Shown one piece after another: positions 5,949 through 62,733 of a stretch of 64,000 bases of DNA (positions are counted from its first letter, which is position 1; each line of letters begins with the position of its first letter). Origin of the DNA: Candidatus Komeilibacteria bacterium (GTDB lineage: Bacteria > Patescibacteriota > Patescibacteriia > UBA1558 > 2-01-FULL-52-15); assembly GCA_043801745.1 (NCBI GenBank), contig JAZDLR010000016.1, positions 1,535-65,534 on the forward strand, in the 5' to 3' direction. The translations under genes and the position numbers were made by a program. The notes under the pieces were generated by a model. The model was not told where the DNA came from. It worked only from the letters and a program-made list of their open reading frames with translations, and searched no databases.

Positions 5949-5951
5949 TGT

Positions 5952-6020
5952 GGGTCCATCTGAGTTGTCAGGACATTCGCATTGCTGAGGTAAGGAGTTC
6001 GAGTCTCCTCGGGTCCACCA
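5952..6020 (+). pseudogene. degenerate tRNA-Ala-like copy (tRNA fragment/pseudo-tRNA)
   Basis: Shares anticodon region cattcgcattgctgagg and T-arm/3' end ggagttcgagtctcctcgggtccacca with the adjacent tRNA-Ala, but D and anticodon stems do not pair. Confidence 0.4.
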
Positions 6021-6088
6021 ATGGTTCGGGCAGTTCCCCGCCTCCATAAAATCAAATAGAGCGGGTCCGCCTTTGGCGGAGATTCTGC

Positions 6089-6137
6089 TCGCCTCGCTGA
6101 GCGAGAGCGAAGCGGGCCTAGGTCCACCATTTCAGAT
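6089..6137. repeat. 49-bp direct repeat, copy 1 (tcgcctcgctgagcgagagcgaagcgggcctaggtccaccatttcagat)
   Basis: Identical to 8503-8551; ends in tRNA 3'-end-like GGTCCACCA. Confidence 0.9.
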
Positions 6138-38680: not shown

Positions 38681-38816
38681 AATGTTCTCATTATGTCTTT
38701 TCCTTTACTGACAGTCAAGAGCGGGCTAATAAATTGCCACTGTCCAACCTTGATTTTCTCTAATGAAAATGCTAATGTAGCGGGGTTAAATCACTCTATT
38801 TTTTTAAATTTTTTCT

Positions 38817-38848
38817 CCCCGCCCAGAGGGCGGTCGCCCCGTGGGCGA
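38817..38848. repeat. double-hairpin repeat element, copy A (CCGCCC-AGA-GGGCGG / TCGCCC-CGT-GGGCGA)
   Basis: Second copy at 51755-51784 has identical stems and different loops. Confidence 0.7.
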
Positions 38849-38868: not shown

Positions 38869-39576
38869 ATGTCCGGCCATTCCAAGTGGGCCACTACCAA
38901 ACGCCAAAAAGCGGTTACTGACGCCAAGCGCAGTAATCTTTTTACTAAGTTGGCGAAAAACATTGCTGTGGCTGCCCGCGATGGAGCCGATCCGGCTATG
39001 AATTTTAAATTGCGCATTGCGATTGACAAGGCCAAAGAGTACAGCATGCCCAAAGATAATATTGAACGGGCTATTGCCCGTGGTAGCGGTACCGGCGGTG
39101 GTCAGGCAGTTGAAACTATTCTGTACGAAGCTTATGGCCCGGAAGGAATAGCTTTATTGATTGAAACCGTAACTGATAATAAAAATCGTTCGGCCGGCAC
39201 AGTTAAGGCTATCTTGAGTAAAAACGGCGGTAGTTTGGGCAGTGCCGGCAGCGTTCAGTGGCAATTTAATCTTCAAGGGATTCTGACTTTAAAAATTTCG
39301 AAACTTACTGACGAGCAAGAGTTACAATTAATCGATGCGGGGGCCGAAGATTTCATTGAACTGGGCGATTTGCTACAAATTATCTCAGCTCCAGAAAATT
39401 TGGAAAAGATCAAACATCAAGTTCAAGCTTTAAATCTGCCGCTAACCGACGCCGCCCTAGAATACCGACCCAAAGATTTGATTACGCCTAAAGATCCCGA
39501 GAGAATAATCCATCTCTTAGAATTACTGGAAGACGACGAAGACATCAATAACGTTTATACCAACGCCAACGTCTAA
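38869..39576 (+). CDS. yebC: YebC/PmpR-family DNA-binding transcriptional regulator
   Basis: N-terminal MSGHSKWATTKRQKAVTDAKR ... motif; conserved linkage with ruvC. Confidence 0.9.
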   Translation: MSGHSKWATTKRQKAVTDAKRSNLFTKLAKNIAVAARDGADPAMNFKLRIAIDKAKEYSMPKDNIERAIARGSGTGGGQAVETILYEAYGPEGIALLIETVTDNKNRSAGTVKAILSKNGGSLGSAGSVQWQFNLQGILTLKISKLTDEQELQLIDAGAEDFIELGDLLQIISAPENLEKIKHQVQALNLPLTDAALEYRPKDLITPKDPERIIHLLELLEDDEDINNVYTNANV

Positions 39577-51362: not shown

Positions 51363-51384
51363 ATTATTACCTGGAAAAGAAAAA

Positions 51385-51545
51385 GCCCCCGCGAGTAATT
51401 GCGAGGGCCAGGTTGGTGGAACCGGCCGGATTTGCCGCGCCCCGCTGCCTAGCGTCAGCTATGGCGGCCGGGGAACCGACGATCTCCCTGGGGTCAACCA
51501 GAGCGCCTTAAACACTTGGCCACGGTTCCGATATCACGGAAATAA
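51385..51545 (-). other. GC-rich segment co-transcribed downstream of tRNAs, ending in an intrinsic terminator (candidate small ncRNA or processed trailer)
   Basis: Minus-strand terminator CCCUCGC-AAUUACU-CGCGGGGG plus U5 near 51385-51410; about 60% GC, no convincing ORF. Confidence 0.3.
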
Positions 51546-51547
51546 GT

Positions 51548-51652
51548 TGGAGCGGGTGATGGGATTCGAACCCACGACGTCTTCCCGAGGTAAGAGGCAG
51601 ATCACACATACCCCGCCAGAAGAAAGCGCCCTACCTCTGGGCCACACCCGCT
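51548..51652 (-). tRNA. tRNA with ~29-nt insertion in anticodon loop (anticodon CUG/Gln-like if insertion removed at 37/38)
   Basis: Acceptor GCGGGTG/CACCCGC, D-arm GCCC-AGAGGTA-GGGC, T-arm GTGGG-TTCGAAT-CCCAT, CCA encoded; anticodon stem CTTTC/GGAAG interrupted by hairpin GGGGTA...TACCTC. Confidence 0.5.
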
Positions 51653-51666
51653 CTAAAAGAACGAAT

Positions 51667-51743
51667 TGGAGTAGCCAACCGGACTCGAACCGGCAACCTC
51701 CTCACCGAAGGGGTGAGCCGCTCTACCTTTGAGCTATGGCAAC
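51667..51743 (-). tRNA. tRNA-like gene with atypical anticodon loop (CCCUUCG; anticodon unresolved, CUU/UUC-like)
   Basis: Acceptor GTTGCCA/TGGCTAC (one mismatch), D-arm GCTC-AAAGGTA-GAGC, anticodon stem CTCAC/GTGAG, T-arm GCCGG-TTCGAGT-CCGGT, CCA encoded. Confidence 0.45.
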
Positions 51744-51754
51744 ATCTTGTCTTG

Positions 51755-51784
51755 CCGCCCACCGGGCGGTCGCCCTGTGGGCGA
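51755..51784. repeat. double-hairpin repeat element, copy B (CCGCCC-ACC-GGGCGG / TCGCCC-TGT-GGGCGA)
   Basis: Same stems as 38817-38848; sits inside a 40-bp segment flanked by 13-bp direct repeats (51732-51744 and 51785-51797, agctatggcaaca). Confidence 0.7.
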
Positions 51785-52029
51785 AGCTATGGCAACAAAA
51801 AATATCTCTGAAGCCTACCCGCCTATGGTGGGCAGCGACACGAATATAGATATTAATACAACTCAAAATCAGTGTCAATTACTATTACTTGACATTATCT
51901 TAATAATATGATAAAAAATAATGTTCTTTGAAATCATGGGCCTGTTATGGCCTTGTATATATAGAACTCCATACGGAGGTTGCCGACAACGCGTCGGCAT
52001 AGACACAAAACCGCCATGAACCGAGGAGG

Positions 52030-62264: not shown

Positions 62265-62573
62265 AAGAGAACGCCACGGTCGAATGATCGTGGCGTTTTG
62301 ACGCAAGGTCCGCACAAGCCGCAGATGGGCAAGATGGGCGAAACCCGCAGATGATATAACCTTATTGGCTTTTTGCCGGCACCATAGGGGGCTATCCCCC
62401 ACAGGTACCGCGTCACCCCCTTTATCGAAGTATCGGGGGCTTGCTCGCCCACTGGGCGACGGCAGGGTTGGGGCACATTGGCCCCGTTAGCCGAGGAGAC
62501 ACTCGTCGGACCGCTGAGCTCTAGCGGCCAAACAGGCGTTTCCTTTCTAAACCCTCGATCCCTGGGCGTCCCC
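62265..62573 (-). other. GC-rich structured non-coding region; tentative tmRNA-like element
   Basis: Minus strand begins GGGGACGCCCAGGGAUCGAGGG (resembles tmRNA 5' GGGGCUGAUUCUGGAUUCGACGGG); 3' side has hairpin CCACG-AUCAUUCGAC-CGUGG then CGUUCUC that can pair with the 5' end; no tag ORF identified. Confidence 0.2.
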
Positions 62574-62733
62574 TGGGATCAATGTACTAATAACCTTTTA
62601 TCATATATATAAAATTGTGTCAACCCCGAAAACCGAAGTAAATTAAAATAATGGCTAGTTTTGGCCAATTTAGGTGCTAATCATACTATGTTTGAGTGTT
62701 CGGGTCCCAAGTTGCAAGCCACAAGTCCCCTCT

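What the first reader, a model, noticed from the sequence alone, without database searches (positions are those of the whole stretch)
38817..38848. Conserved-stem/variable-loop double-hairpin repeat family (two copies in window)
Copies at 38817-38848 (between the divergently oriented SIS/PGI gene and yebC) and 51755-51784 share both 6-bp stems, CCGCCC/GGGCGG and TCGCCC/GGGCGA. The 3-nt loops differ (AGA vs ACC; CGT vs TGT). Stem conservation with loop variation points to selection on structure, as for a REP-like element, a protein-binding site or a small terminator/attenuator.
Basis: seen in the sequence. Interest (0 to 1): 0.5.

Follow-up and report, generated by a model that had tools for sequence, protein, structure and literature searches.

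The report
Thirty-base mobile double-hairpin repeat in Patescibacteria
The two copies belong to a widespread, apparently undescribed family of 30-base GC-rich double-hairpin elements in Patescibacteria that appear as exact 30-base insertions in gene leaders, inside essential genes in frame, and in leftover pieces of tRNA genes, so they behave like very small selfish DNA rather than a regulatory signal.

Summary
Two exact copies of CCGCCC-NNN-GGGCGG-TCGCCC-NNN-GGGCGA lie at 38819-38848 and 51755-51784; shuffles give none. The window is from a Candidatus Komeilibacteria MAG. Scans of public genomes and metagenomes gave 89 distinct low-GC copies.

- **Structure:** one stem pair that the search left free covaries (A-T 41, G-C 20, G-T 1, A-C 0). 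Related copies carry other fully compensated stems.
- **Symmetry:** the whole 30-mer has two-fold symmetry, loops included.
- **Locations:** copies lie in 5' leaders and in frame inside housekeeping genes such as Fmt, SMC, TrmD, PheT and MurC/D. They also lie in the D-, anticodon- and T-loop positions of tRNA-gene fragments next to intact tRNAs.
- **Empty site:** the closest Fmt homologue lacks exactly these 30 bases, with no target duplication.
- **Dispensability:** of six yebC lineages, two carry the element, three lack any hairpin pair, and one carries different hairpins.

Best reading: a tiny non-autonomous mobile hairpin element, akin to Rickettsia palindromic elements, REPs and mitochondrial GC clusters. 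Its enzyme is unknown; small GIY-YIG nuclease genes are the only family that recurs nearby. Both window copies probably sit in transcribed leaders. It is not a terminator.

The parts
38819..38848 (+). Element copy 1. Hairpin 1 is CCGCCC-aga-GGGCGG (38819-38833) and hairpin 2 is TCGCCC-cgt-GGGCGA (38834-38848). It lies 20 bases upstream of the yebC ATG, in the predicted 5' leader.
51755..51784 (+). Element copy 2. Hairpin 1 is CCGCCC-acc-GGGCGG (51755-51769) and hairpin 2 is TCGCCC-tgt-GGGCGA (51770-51784). It lies in the predicted leader of the minus-strand tRNA operon.
51785..51797 (-). Duplicated 5' fragment of tRNA-Lys (GTTGCCATAGCT plus one upstream T on the minus strand), abutting the element. 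The element sits after tRNA position 12 of this fragment.
51745..51754 (-). 10-base spacer between the element and the intact tRNA. With the shared T at 51744 it reads CAAGACAAGAT on the minus strand. Its first 3 bases, CAA, continue the tRNA fragment (positions 13-15).
51667..51743 (-). Intact tRNA-Lys(ctt). Its first 12 bases are the other copy of the direct repeat (51732-51744).
51850..51878 (-). Promoter-like site TTGACA-17-TAATAT upstream of the fragment, the element and tRNA-Lys. If it is real, the element is transcribed in the pre-tRNA leader.
38750..38778 (+). Promoter-like site TTGATT-17 (with TG)-TAATGT. It is conserved in four yebC lineages and places copy 1 about 33 bases into the yebC-ruvC leader.
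   Evidence: conservation read from the sequences; the role is inferred
38869..39576 (+). yebC, followed by ruvC: the gene downstream of copy 1.
62445..62459 (+). Solo hairpin TCGCCC-act-GGGCGA, identical in stem to hairpin 2. It lies inside a GC-rich run of small hairpins and may be a half element.
6066..6080 (+). Solo hairpin TCCGCC-ttt-GGCGGA. This stem type recurs in variant double hairpins elsewhere. It lies next to tRNA 3'-end fragments downstream of tRNA-Ala.
51813..51827 (+). Degenerate hairpin CCCGCC-tat-GGTGGG (one G-T pair) in the same tRNA leader.
   Evidence: read from the sequence

Best explanation
The two copies are members of a family of miniature, non-autonomous, GC-rich double-hairpin elements dispersed in the AT-rich genomes of Patescibacteria (the window is a Komeilibacteria MAG).

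Shown here:
- The unit is exactly 30 bases: two adjacent hairpins, each with a 6-bp stem and a 3-base loop.
- The stems are held complementary.
- The whole unit has two-fold symmetry, so both DNA strands present nearly the same pair of hairpins.
- At the one site where an empty allele could be compared, it appears as a precise 30-base insertion with no target-site duplication.
- It tolerates many contexts because 30 is a multiple of 3 and the sequence is open in almost all six frames.
- It lies in AT-rich, repeat-rich 5' leaders.
- It lies in frame inside housekeeping genes, where it adds about 10 residues (RPxGDRPxGG).
- It lies at loop-coding positions of redundant tRNA-gene fragments.

Inferred:
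- It spreads as DNA.
- It is recognised by shape and symmetry as single-stranded or cruciform DNA by an enzyme supplied in trans.
- It enters exposed single-stranded targets, such as loops of tRNA-like hairpins or slipped tandem repeats, at sites of the form Y-N^N-R.
- The enzyme is unknown. Small GIY-YIG nuclease genes are the only family that recurs beside copies.

In this window both copies probably sit in transcribed leaders, of yebC-ruvC and of the tRNA-Lys operon. They are most likely neutral or mildly tolerated passengers.
For: - **Family size and spread:** 23 exact matches in 12 low-GC MAG assemblies, each representing a different species, and 93 metagenome stretches. Together these give 89 distinct low-GC copies.
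- **Pairing constraint:** the pair left free by the search is A-T 41, G-C 20, G-T 1, A-C 0. Across 57 distinct 30-mers, 99.4% of cells pair and 10 of 12 pairs change on both sides. Variants carry other fully compensated stems in the same 6-3-6/6-3-6 layout.
- **Which fold:** the alternative single long hairpin is broken at pair 3-28 in 29 of 57 sequences.
- **Symmetry:** loop positions 7 and 24 are complementary in 55 of 57. The reverse complement differs from the consensus at only 4 of 24 stem positions.
- **Precise insertion:** the Fmt gene carrying the element (L014) differs from its closest homologue (77% identical) by a clean 10-residue, 30-base gap that equals the element. There is no duplication, and the flanking heptamer repeats are already present in the empty site.
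- **In-frame copies in real genes:** Fmt, SMC, YgjP-like, VWA, GT4, PheT, MurD and MurC-like; PGI and TrmD. The TrmD carrying the element is about 11 residues longer than solved TrmD proteins at that point.
- **Open frames:** the element is open in 5.76 of 6 frames on average.
- **tRNA contexts:** 20 of 89 copies lie within 250 bases of an intact tRNA. None restores a tRNA when cut out. They sit after tRNA position 12, 17 or 35/36, or in the T-loop, of fragments next to the intact gene.
- **Dispensable and sporadic:** of six yebC lineages, the window and one 63%-identical lineage carry the element with 24 of 24 stem bases identical while the flanks no longer align. The 81%, 63% and 64% lineages have no hairpin pair there, and the 86% lineage (three MAGs) carries two different hairpins.
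- **Neighbouring genes:** GIY-YIG (PF01541) is the only protein family that recurs beside copies, with 11 non-redundant members within 380 bases.
Against: - Mobility is inferred from distribution and from one empty-versus-filled comparison at 77% protein identity. I found no presence/absence polymorphism between near-identical strains.
- No transposase or other mobilising enzyme is identified. The GIY-YIG association could be indirect, because both the nuclease genes and the elements cluster at tRNA genes.
- The window holds no GIY-YIG gene.
- Nearly all copies are perfect; only about 8 imperfect copies turned up beside roughly 100 perfect ones. That also fits purifying selection for a function.
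- The element sits at the same relative place upstream of yebC in two lineages with 63% identical YebC. That could mean conservation rather than two insertions.
- The search patterns fixed most stem positions, so covariation is free of ascertainment only for one pair and for the variants found by mismatch search.
Confidence: 0.72

Rival explanations
1. A functional RNA element of 5' leaders: two stable hairpins that protect the transcript's 5' region or mark a processing site. This would resemble the GC-rich palindromes once proposed as processing signals next to mitochondrial tRNA genes.
For: Both window copies lie downstream of promoter-like sites and upstream of the mature gene products. 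Among the 31 copies with ORFs of at least 110 aa within 400 bases on both sides, about 20 lie within 60 bases upstream of a start codon. In the predicted yebC leader the element folds on itself and leaves the G-poor leader and the AUG unpaired. The 86% relatives carry other GC hairpins at the same place. Almost all copies keep perfect stems.
Against: Intergenic copies occur in both orientations relative to co-directional genes (14 versus 9). Copies also sit inside ORFs in frame and in non-functional tRNA fragments. Three yebC relatives with the same promoter have no hairpin pair there. Complementarity between the two loops (55 of 57) has no obvious use in an RNA made of two separate hairpins. 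In RNA the most stable fold of copy 1 is the long hairpin, which the common CCACCC variant breaks.
Confidence: 0.1
2. A binding site on double-stranded DNA for a dimeric host protein, such as a regulator or a nucleoid or segregation factor, that recognises the 30-bp two-fold symmetric sequence.
For: The 30-mer has strong two-fold symmetry, loops included. Stem sequences are identical across species. Copy 1 lies between a promoter-like site and the start codon.
Against: Stems change by compensated pairs within one arm (CCGCCC/GGGCGG to CCACCC/GGGTGG, and many other stems), and both forms occur on one contig. That preserves hairpin pairing rather than a fixed recognition sequence. Copies lie inside essential ORFs and tRNA fragments. 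The element is absent from orthologous promoters.
Confidence: 0.07
3. A repair scar rather than a self-propagating element: hairpin sequences copied into double-strand breaks made by GIY-YIG homing endonucleases at tRNA genes and elsewhere, so the hairpins mark past breaks.
For: GIY-YIG genes cluster beside copies and beside tRNA genes. Of 75 tRNAs in the fetched loci, 24 have partial self-duplicates, most with a GC hairpin at the break point. In L016 a GIY-YIG pseudogene and an intact tRNA-Pro lie between two tRNA-Pro fragments that each carry the element.
Against: Most copies (about 70 of 89) are not near a tRNA or a GIY-YIG gene. The Fmt insertion is exact, with no other rearrangement. The window has copies but no GIY-YIG gene. 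The same 30-mer recurring at many unrelated sites still requires templated copying, which amounts to a form of mobility.
Confidence: 0.07
4. A small intrinsic terminator or attenuator.
For: The element is a GC-rich hairpin. In some other loci the 3' flank is T-rich, for example GGGCGA-tatttttt in L042, L060 and L073.
Against: The consensus scan finds no terminator-like site at either window copy. Copy 1 lies between divergent genes, and copy 2 lies upstream of the tRNAs it would have to terminate. The operon has its own terminator-like hairpin near 51377-51410. Copies also lie inside ORFs.
Confidence: 0.02

Closest known systems
Rickettsia palindromic elements (RPE)
   Same: Dispersed palindromic repeats of a reduced bacterial genome. 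They occur in frame inside protein-coding genes as well as in non-coding DNA and RNA genes, add a short peptide, have no gene of their own and make no target duplication. The properties of RPEs are from established knowledge. The matching behaviour here is shown.
   Different: RPEs are about 100-150 bp and confined to Rickettsia. This element is 30 bases, folds as two tiny hairpins rather than one long one, shares no sequence with RPEs and is found in Patescibacteria.
Mitochondrial GC clusters and double-hairpin elements (yeast GC42, PMC4478555; Allomyces DHEs, Paquin et al. 2000; Neurospora GC-rich palindromes flanking tRNA genes, Yin et al. 1981; the last two known here only as citations in that paper)
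   Same: Short GC-rich hairpin-forming repeats in an AT-rich genome. Substitutions concentrate in the loops while the stems are kept (PMC4478555, read; here). Two adjacent hairpins. An association with tRNA genes.
   Different: Those elements are organellar, and GC42 is 42 bases with an AG target-site pair. This one is bacterial, 30 bases, shows no target duplication and is often found inside ORFs.
REP / REPIN elements mobilised by RAYT transposases (PMC3116915)
   Same: Short palindromic repeats present in many copies per genome. Paired inverted units. Presumed to act as single-stranded DNA hairpins, with an enzyme supplied in trans.
   Different: REPs are extragenic, carry a conserved tetranucleotide beside the palindrome and come with a RAYT gene flanked by REPs. 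Here copies lie inside genes, the flanks show only Y at -2 and R at +2, and no such gene lies near any copy.
Small dispersed repeats of heterocyst-forming cyanobacteria (Elhai et al. 2008; details from memory, the paper was not read here)
   Same: Very small (about 21-27 bases) apparently mobile repeats with no coding capacity. They are found within other repeats, including tandem heptamers, and occasionally inside genes.
   Different: A different phylum and different sequences. Whether they share the double-hairpin form, the two-fold symmetry or the association with tRNA fragments was not checked.

Membership tests
REP/REPIN-RAYT system | Short palindromic unit dispersed in many copies | tested here: met
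   89 distinct copies across MAGs and metagenomes. At least 6 exact copies lie on one 296-kb contig and 6 in one MAG.
REP/REPIN-RAYT system | Confined to extragenic DNA | tested here: not met
   At least 10 copies lie in frame inside Pfam-confirmed genes.
REP/REPIN-RAYT system | Conserved tetranucleotide (such as GTAG) next to the palindrome | tested here: not met
   The flank profile shows only T/C at -2 (84 of 89) and A/G at +2 (86 of 89).
REP/REPIN-RAYT system | Cognate RAYT (Y1 HUH transposase) gene, typically flanked by REPs | tested here: inconclusive
   Clustering of all ORFs within 1.5 kb of copies found only GIY-YIG as a recurrent family. Whole genomes could not be searched.
Rickettsia palindromic elements | In-frame insertion in ORFs, leaving the host protein otherwise intact | tested here: met
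   A 10-residue gap in the closest Fmt homologue. TrmD is about 11 residues longer than solved homologues. Domains continue on both sides of the element.
Rickettsia palindromic elements | Length of about 100-150 bp and membership of the RPE sequence families of Rickettsia | tested here: not met
   The unit is exactly 30 bases and the hosts are Patescibacteria.
Miniature inverted-repeat transposable elements (MITE) | Target-site duplication of fixed length | tested here: not met
   The empty and filled Fmt sites differ by exactly the 30-mer. The heptamer repeats beside it are native.
IS200/IS605-type single-strand hairpin elements | Hairpin ends, no target duplication, and insertion next to a specific short target sequence | tested here: inconclusive
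   Hairpins and the absence of duplication are met. The target is only loosely defined, Y-N^N-R. No TnpA gene was seen near copies.
Intrinsic terminator | GC-rich hairpin followed by a T-run at the 3' end of a transcription unit | tested here: not met
   No terminator-like site at either copy. Both copies lie upstream of genes.
tRNA intron (group I or bulge-helix-bulge type) | Removing the insert restores a complete tRNA gene | tested here: not met
   Cutting the 30-mer out of all 89 contexts gives no tRNA that spans the junction. The carriers are fragments next to intact tRNAs.
Known RNA families (Rfam 15) | Match to a curated covariance model | tested here: not met
   Only tRNAs pass the gathering score in the window. 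Around copy 1 nothing scores better than E = 1.2.

The most novel reading that the evidence does not exclude
The 30-mer is a 'homing hairpin'. On this reading it is one of the smallest mobile DNA units so far reported (a judgement from memory, not tested here). A symmetric, structure-specific nuclease made elsewhere in the genome would copy it precisely, without target duplication, into single-stranded loops of tRNA-like hairpins and slipped tandem repeats. The candidate is the ~85-120-residue GIY-YIG proteins embedded beside tRNA genes. That would be a new way of mobilising DNA, and a driver of both in-frame peptide insertions in essential genes and tRNA-gene fragmentation in Patescibacteria.
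Probability: 0.15. Interest if true: 0.8.

Novelty: new variant of a known kind. Interest (0 to 1): 0.6.

Why it matters
- **Genome streamlining:** Patescibacteria have very small, streamlined genomes, yet this element shows they tolerate and spread a selfish repeat. It even occurs inside essential genes such as SMC, Fmt, TrmD, PheT and the Mur ligases.
- **Annotation:** the element explains otherwise puzzling 10-residue RPxGDRPxGG insertions. It also explains the GC-rich hairpins and tRNA-gene fragments that confuse tRNA and gene callers in these MAGs.
- **Strain typing:** it gives a compact marker for strain-level comparison.
- **Mechanism:** an exact 30-base, two-fold symmetric insertion with no target duplication is a tractable substrate for finding the enzyme responsible.
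- **For this window:** neither copy needs to be read as a regulator of yebC or of tRNA-Lys.

Tried and rejected
- **Known RNA family:** only tRNAs pass Rfam's gathering score in the window, and nothing meaningful appears around copy 1 at E up to 10.
- **Terminator:** no T-run at either copy and the wrong position.
- **tRNA intron:** cutting the element out never restores a tRNA.
- **Single long hairpin:** it is the most stable RNA fold for copy 1, but the common CCACCC/GGGTGG variant breaks it.
- **Target-site duplication:** I first read the flanking direct repeats as variable-length duplications. Longest shared words of 8 or more occur in 20 of 89 copies, against 3.7% in mismatched controls. 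The empty Fmt site shows the repeats are native tandem heptamers and the insertion is exactly 30 bases. The yebC leader that lacks the element is also full of short tandem repeats.
- **Orientation bias inside ORFs:** it is 14 to 2. I considered a replication or transcription effect, but intergenic copies show no bias (14 to 9). I attribute the ORF bias to the T-rich flanks on the element's plus strand, which correspond to Lys-rich, A-rich sense strands. This is an inference.
- **Extended element in sub-family B:** L092 and L094 share 12 flanking bases, but the residues they encode (KLDD) are native to GT4 enzymes.
- **Empty site for copy 2:** relatives with 61-80% identical PBP1 have no tRNAs downstream, so no comparison was possible.
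- **Presence/absence polymorphism among the fetched loci:** none found, as expected given how the loci were chosen.
- **Phage carriage:** no match for either stem form in IMG/VR.
- **Literature:** no paper in the searchable library describes the element. Searches by sequence, CPR repeats, MITEs and GIY-YIG with tRNA found nothing relevant, and the paper on Patescibacteria tRNA introns does not mention hairpin insertions.
- **Chance matches:** five genome hits in 66-74% GC genomes with irregular loops were set aside as chance.

Full report
**1. The observation.** Both copies are present.
- The unit is 30 bases: 38819-38848 (CCGCCC-aga-GGGCGG-TCGCCC-cgt-GGGCGA) and 51755-51784 (CCGCCC-acc-GGGCGG-TCGCCC-tgt-GGGCGA).
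- With free loops and up to three mismatches, these are the only two matches in the window. None occurs in any of 100 shuffles.
- With DNA parameters, three of the four strands tested fold into two hairpins of 6 bp with 3-base loops. The minus strand at copy 2 folds as one long hairpin (z from -3.2 to -3.9).
- The window has 44% G+C, so these are isolated GC-rich islands.
- The flanking genes are as stated: SIS/PGI on the minus strand and YebC, then RuvC, on the plus strand.
- A YebC protein 100% identical to the window's is named by NCBI as coming from a Candidatus Komeilibacteria MAG.

**2. What surrounds the window copies.**

Copy 1:
- It lies 20 bases upstream of the yebC ATG.
- A promoter-like site (TTGATT, 17 bases ending in TG-C, then TAATGT; 38750-38778) is conserved in four yebC lineages: the window and the 86%, 81% and one 63% lineage.
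- That places the element about 33 bases into the leader. This is an inference.

Copy 2:
- It lies 11 bases upstream of tRNA-Lys(ctt), which is on the minus strand.
- It lies downstream of a minus-strand promoter-like site, TTGACA-17-TAATAT, at 51878-51850.
- On the minus strand the order is: promoter; GTTGCCATAGCT, a copy of tRNA positions 1-12; the element; CAAGACAAGAT; the intact tRNA-Lys; tRNA-Gln; a tRNA-like gene; and a terminator-like hairpin.

Neither copy has a T-run.

**3. The family.**
- A scan of one genome per species gave 28 matches. Of these, 23 lie in 12 low-GC MAG assemblies labelled Patescibacteria, Komeilibacteria, 'uncultured bacterium' or 'uncultured Gammaproteobacteria'. 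At least one of the last group (CAYTUI01) is syntenic with the window and has a 63% identical YebC. The other five matches are in 66-74% GC genomes, have irregular loops, and I set them aside as chance.
- For the metagenome scan I left one stem pair free (CCRCCC...GGGYGG). It gave 93 stretches.
- After removing duplicates there are 89 distinct low-GC copies.
- Neither stem form occurs in IMG/VR viral contigs.

**4. Structure is constrained.**
- At the free pair, the metagenome copies are A-T 41, G-C 20, G-T 1 and A-C 0.
- At one orthologous locus, the G-T form (L082) and the A-T form (L070) differ by that single base.
- The same loci also hold double hairpins with the same 6-3-6/6-3-6 layout and loop pattern but other, fully compensated stems. 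Examples are TCGGCC/GGCCGA, TCAGCC/GGCTGA, TCCGCC/GGCGGA, TCCCCC/GGGGGA and CTGCCC/GGGCAG.
- On 57 distinct 30-mers the two-hairpin structure pairs 99.4% of cells, and 10 of 12 pairs change on both sides.
- A single long hairpin pairs 92.1% and is broken at pair 3-28 in 29 sequences.
- Caveat: the search patterns fixed most stem positions, and some variants were found by requiring hairpins. The one free pair and the mismatch search are the unbiased parts.

**5. Loops, symmetry and flanks.**
- Loop 1 is A-N-N in 74 of 89 copies and loop 2 is Y-N-T in 72 of 89. A sub-family of 15 has loop 1 mostly T-N-C and loop 2 mostly G-N-A.
- The first base of loop 1 is complementary to the last base of loop 2 in 55 of 57 sequences.
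- The reverse complement of the element differs from the consensus at only 4 of 24 stem positions. The 30-mer therefore has two-fold symmetry, and both DNA strands carry almost the same pair of hairpins.
- I take this as pointing to recognition at the DNA level by a symmetric factor. That is an inference.
- The flanks show only T/C at -2 (84 of 89) and A/G at +2 (86 of 89).

**6. Where copies sit: inside genes.**
- Fourteen of 16 ORF-internal copies have TCGCCC...GGGYGG on the sense strand.
- Pfam confirms Fmt, SMC, a YgjP-like peptidase, a VWA protein, a GT4 glycosyltransferase, PheT, MurD and a MurC-like ligase.
- PGI and TrmD also carry it.
- The added peptide is usually xRPxGD(R/H)PxGG. 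In two genes it is SPxGRPPxGW.
- The flanks are Lys-rich. I attribute the orientation bias to the element's T-rich flank preference, because intergenic copies between co-directional genes show no bias (14 versus 9).
- The element is open in 5.76 of 6 frames on average.

**7. Where copies sit: tRNA-gene fragments.**
- Twenty of 89 copies lie within 250 bases of an intact tRNA, yet cutting out the element never yields a tRNA.
- In each case the carrier is a fragment. Fragments of tRNA positions 1-12 or 1-17, or ending in the anticodon loop, lie upstream of the intact gene. T-loop or 3' fragments lie downstream. The element sits at a loop position of the fragment.
- The window's copy 2 follows this rule.
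- In the fetched loci, 24 of 75 tRNAs have such partial self-duplicates, most with a GC-rich hairpin at the break.

**8. Where copies sit: intergenic DNA.** These are mostly short AT-rich, repeat-rich leaders. Of the 31 copies with ORFs of at least 110 aa within 400 bases on both sides, about 20 lie within 60 bases upstream of a start codon.

**9. It is an exact insertion.**
- The closest homologue of the element-bearing Fmt (77% identical) aligns with a clean 10-residue gap.
- At the DNA level the gap is exactly the 30-mer.
- The empty site reads ACAAGCC four times in tandem, and the filled site has the same four units with the element between the third and fourth. There is therefore no target duplication.
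- This overturned my earlier reading of the flanking direct repeats as duplications made on insertion. They are part of the target context. The yebC leader that lacks the element is likewise full of short tandem repeats.

**10. It is dispensable and sporadic.**
- The SIS-yebC spacer was compared in six lineages. The window and one 63% lineage carry the element, with identical stems while the flanks no longer align.
- The 81% lineage and two others (63% and 64%) have no hairpin pair there. The 86% lineage, represented by three MAGs, has two unrelated hairpins at that place.
- This argues against a required regulatory role. It fits repeated insertion, or gain and loss.

**11. How it may move.**
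- No transposase lies near any copy.
- The only protein family that recurs within 1.5 kb is a small GIY-YIG nuclease (PF01541). Eleven non-redundant members lie within 380 bases of a copy, usually beside tRNA genes.
- In two loci (L005 and L019) the GIY-YIG reading frame runs into the tRNA fragment that carries the element. In a third (L016) the GIY-YIG reading frame, interrupted by a stop, ends about 40 bases before that fragment.
- The window has no such gene.
- The association may be indirect, through tRNA genes. T4 SegB is a precedent for a GIY-YIG homing endonuclease that acts in a tRNA gene cluster (PMC2330249, seen in the search listing only; the paper was not read).
- My working model is inferred, not shown: the hairpins form in single-stranded or cruciform DNA; a symmetric enzyme supplied in trans recognises them; and the element is copied precisely into exposed single-stranded sites such as the loops of tRNA-like hairpins or slipped tandem repeats.

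**12. Comparison with known systems.**
- In behaviour it is closest to Rickettsia palindromic elements (in-frame in ORFs, no duplication).
- In form it is closest to mitochondrial GC clusters and double-hairpin elements: GC hairpins in AT-rich DNA, variation in the loops, and tRNA neighbourhoods (PMC4478555).
- It fails the defining features of REPs (extragenic location, flanking tetranucleotide), MITEs (target duplication), terminators and tRNA introns.
- I found no description of it in the searchable literature.

**13. Verdict.**
- The structural-selection argument is right.
- The best-supported identity is a new, very small mobile hairpin element family of Patescibacteria, not a regulator of yebC or tRNA-Lys.
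- The mechanism and the enzyme remain open.

Noticed in passing
window 51551-51651 (-): tRNA-Gln(ctg) scores 51.7 bits with Rfam's tRNA model but carries an insertion of about 29-33 bases in the anticodon loop (position 37/38 by ARAGORN). It is far too short for a group I intron and is not a double hairpin. Whether it is removed from the RNA is unknown.
   Followed up: partly
window 51414-51529 (-), insert 51435-51473: A third tRNA-like gene lies in the same operon. ARAGORN detects it only after a 39-base GC-rich insert is cut out of the T-loop, and then calls it 'tRNA-???' with an odd anticodon loop. It ends in CCA and is followed by a terminator-like hairpin near 51377-51410.
   Followed up: partly
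window 5949-6130 (+): Downstream of tRNA-Ala(cgc) lies a copy of its last 17 bases ending in CCA, a second GGTCCACCA further on, and the solo hairpin TCCGCC-ttt-GGCGGA. The pattern of tRNA fragment plus hairpin is the same as at copy 2.
   Followed up: partly
window 62380-62600: A GC-rich run of several short hairpins lies between yidC and a diacylglycerol-kinase-like gene. It includes TCGCCC-act-GGGCGA. The RNA fold has z = -3.0 and there is no Rfam match. It could be a cluster of hairpin elements or an unknown RNA.
   Followed up: partly
L122, L127, L128 (yebC leaders of the 86% relatives): Where the window has the element, these MAGs carry two other GC-rich palindromes 10 bases apart: GGCGACTCGAGAGTCGCC and GGCAACCCAAGGGTTGCC. 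This suggests other hairpin families use the same leader.
   Followed up: no
fetched loci, e.g. L005 6451-7017, L016 4250-5000, L019 3-415: Small GIY-YIG genes lie at the 5' ends of tRNA gene copies. In L005 and L019 the reading frame ends at the TAG of the D-loop sequence. In L016 the GIY-YIG frame carries an internal stop and ends upstream of the fragment, with an intact tRNA-Pro close by. This looks like homing-endonuclease cassettes that target tRNA genes.
   Followed up: partly
L133 4384-5120: A GIY-YIG gene downstream of the PBP1 homologue is flanked by several copies of a different ~45-base repeat (tctgtcatttcgac...gagaaatctaatt), some of them in inverted orientation.
   Followed up: no
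L076 3558-3631 and L071: Two elements lie in tandem, 44 bases apart (the element plus TACTTTTTCCTTTT repeated), with further degenerate copies nearby. This shows local arrays can form.
   Followed up: no
L003, L010, L013, L014, L022, L027 (CAYTUI01) and other 'uncultured Gammaproteobacteria' MAGs: These 34-48% GC MAGs are labelled Gammaproteobacteria. CAYTUI01 is syntenic with the Komeilibacteria window (SIS-yebC-ruvC, YebC 63% identical), so at least for that MAG the label looks wrong.
   Followed up: partly
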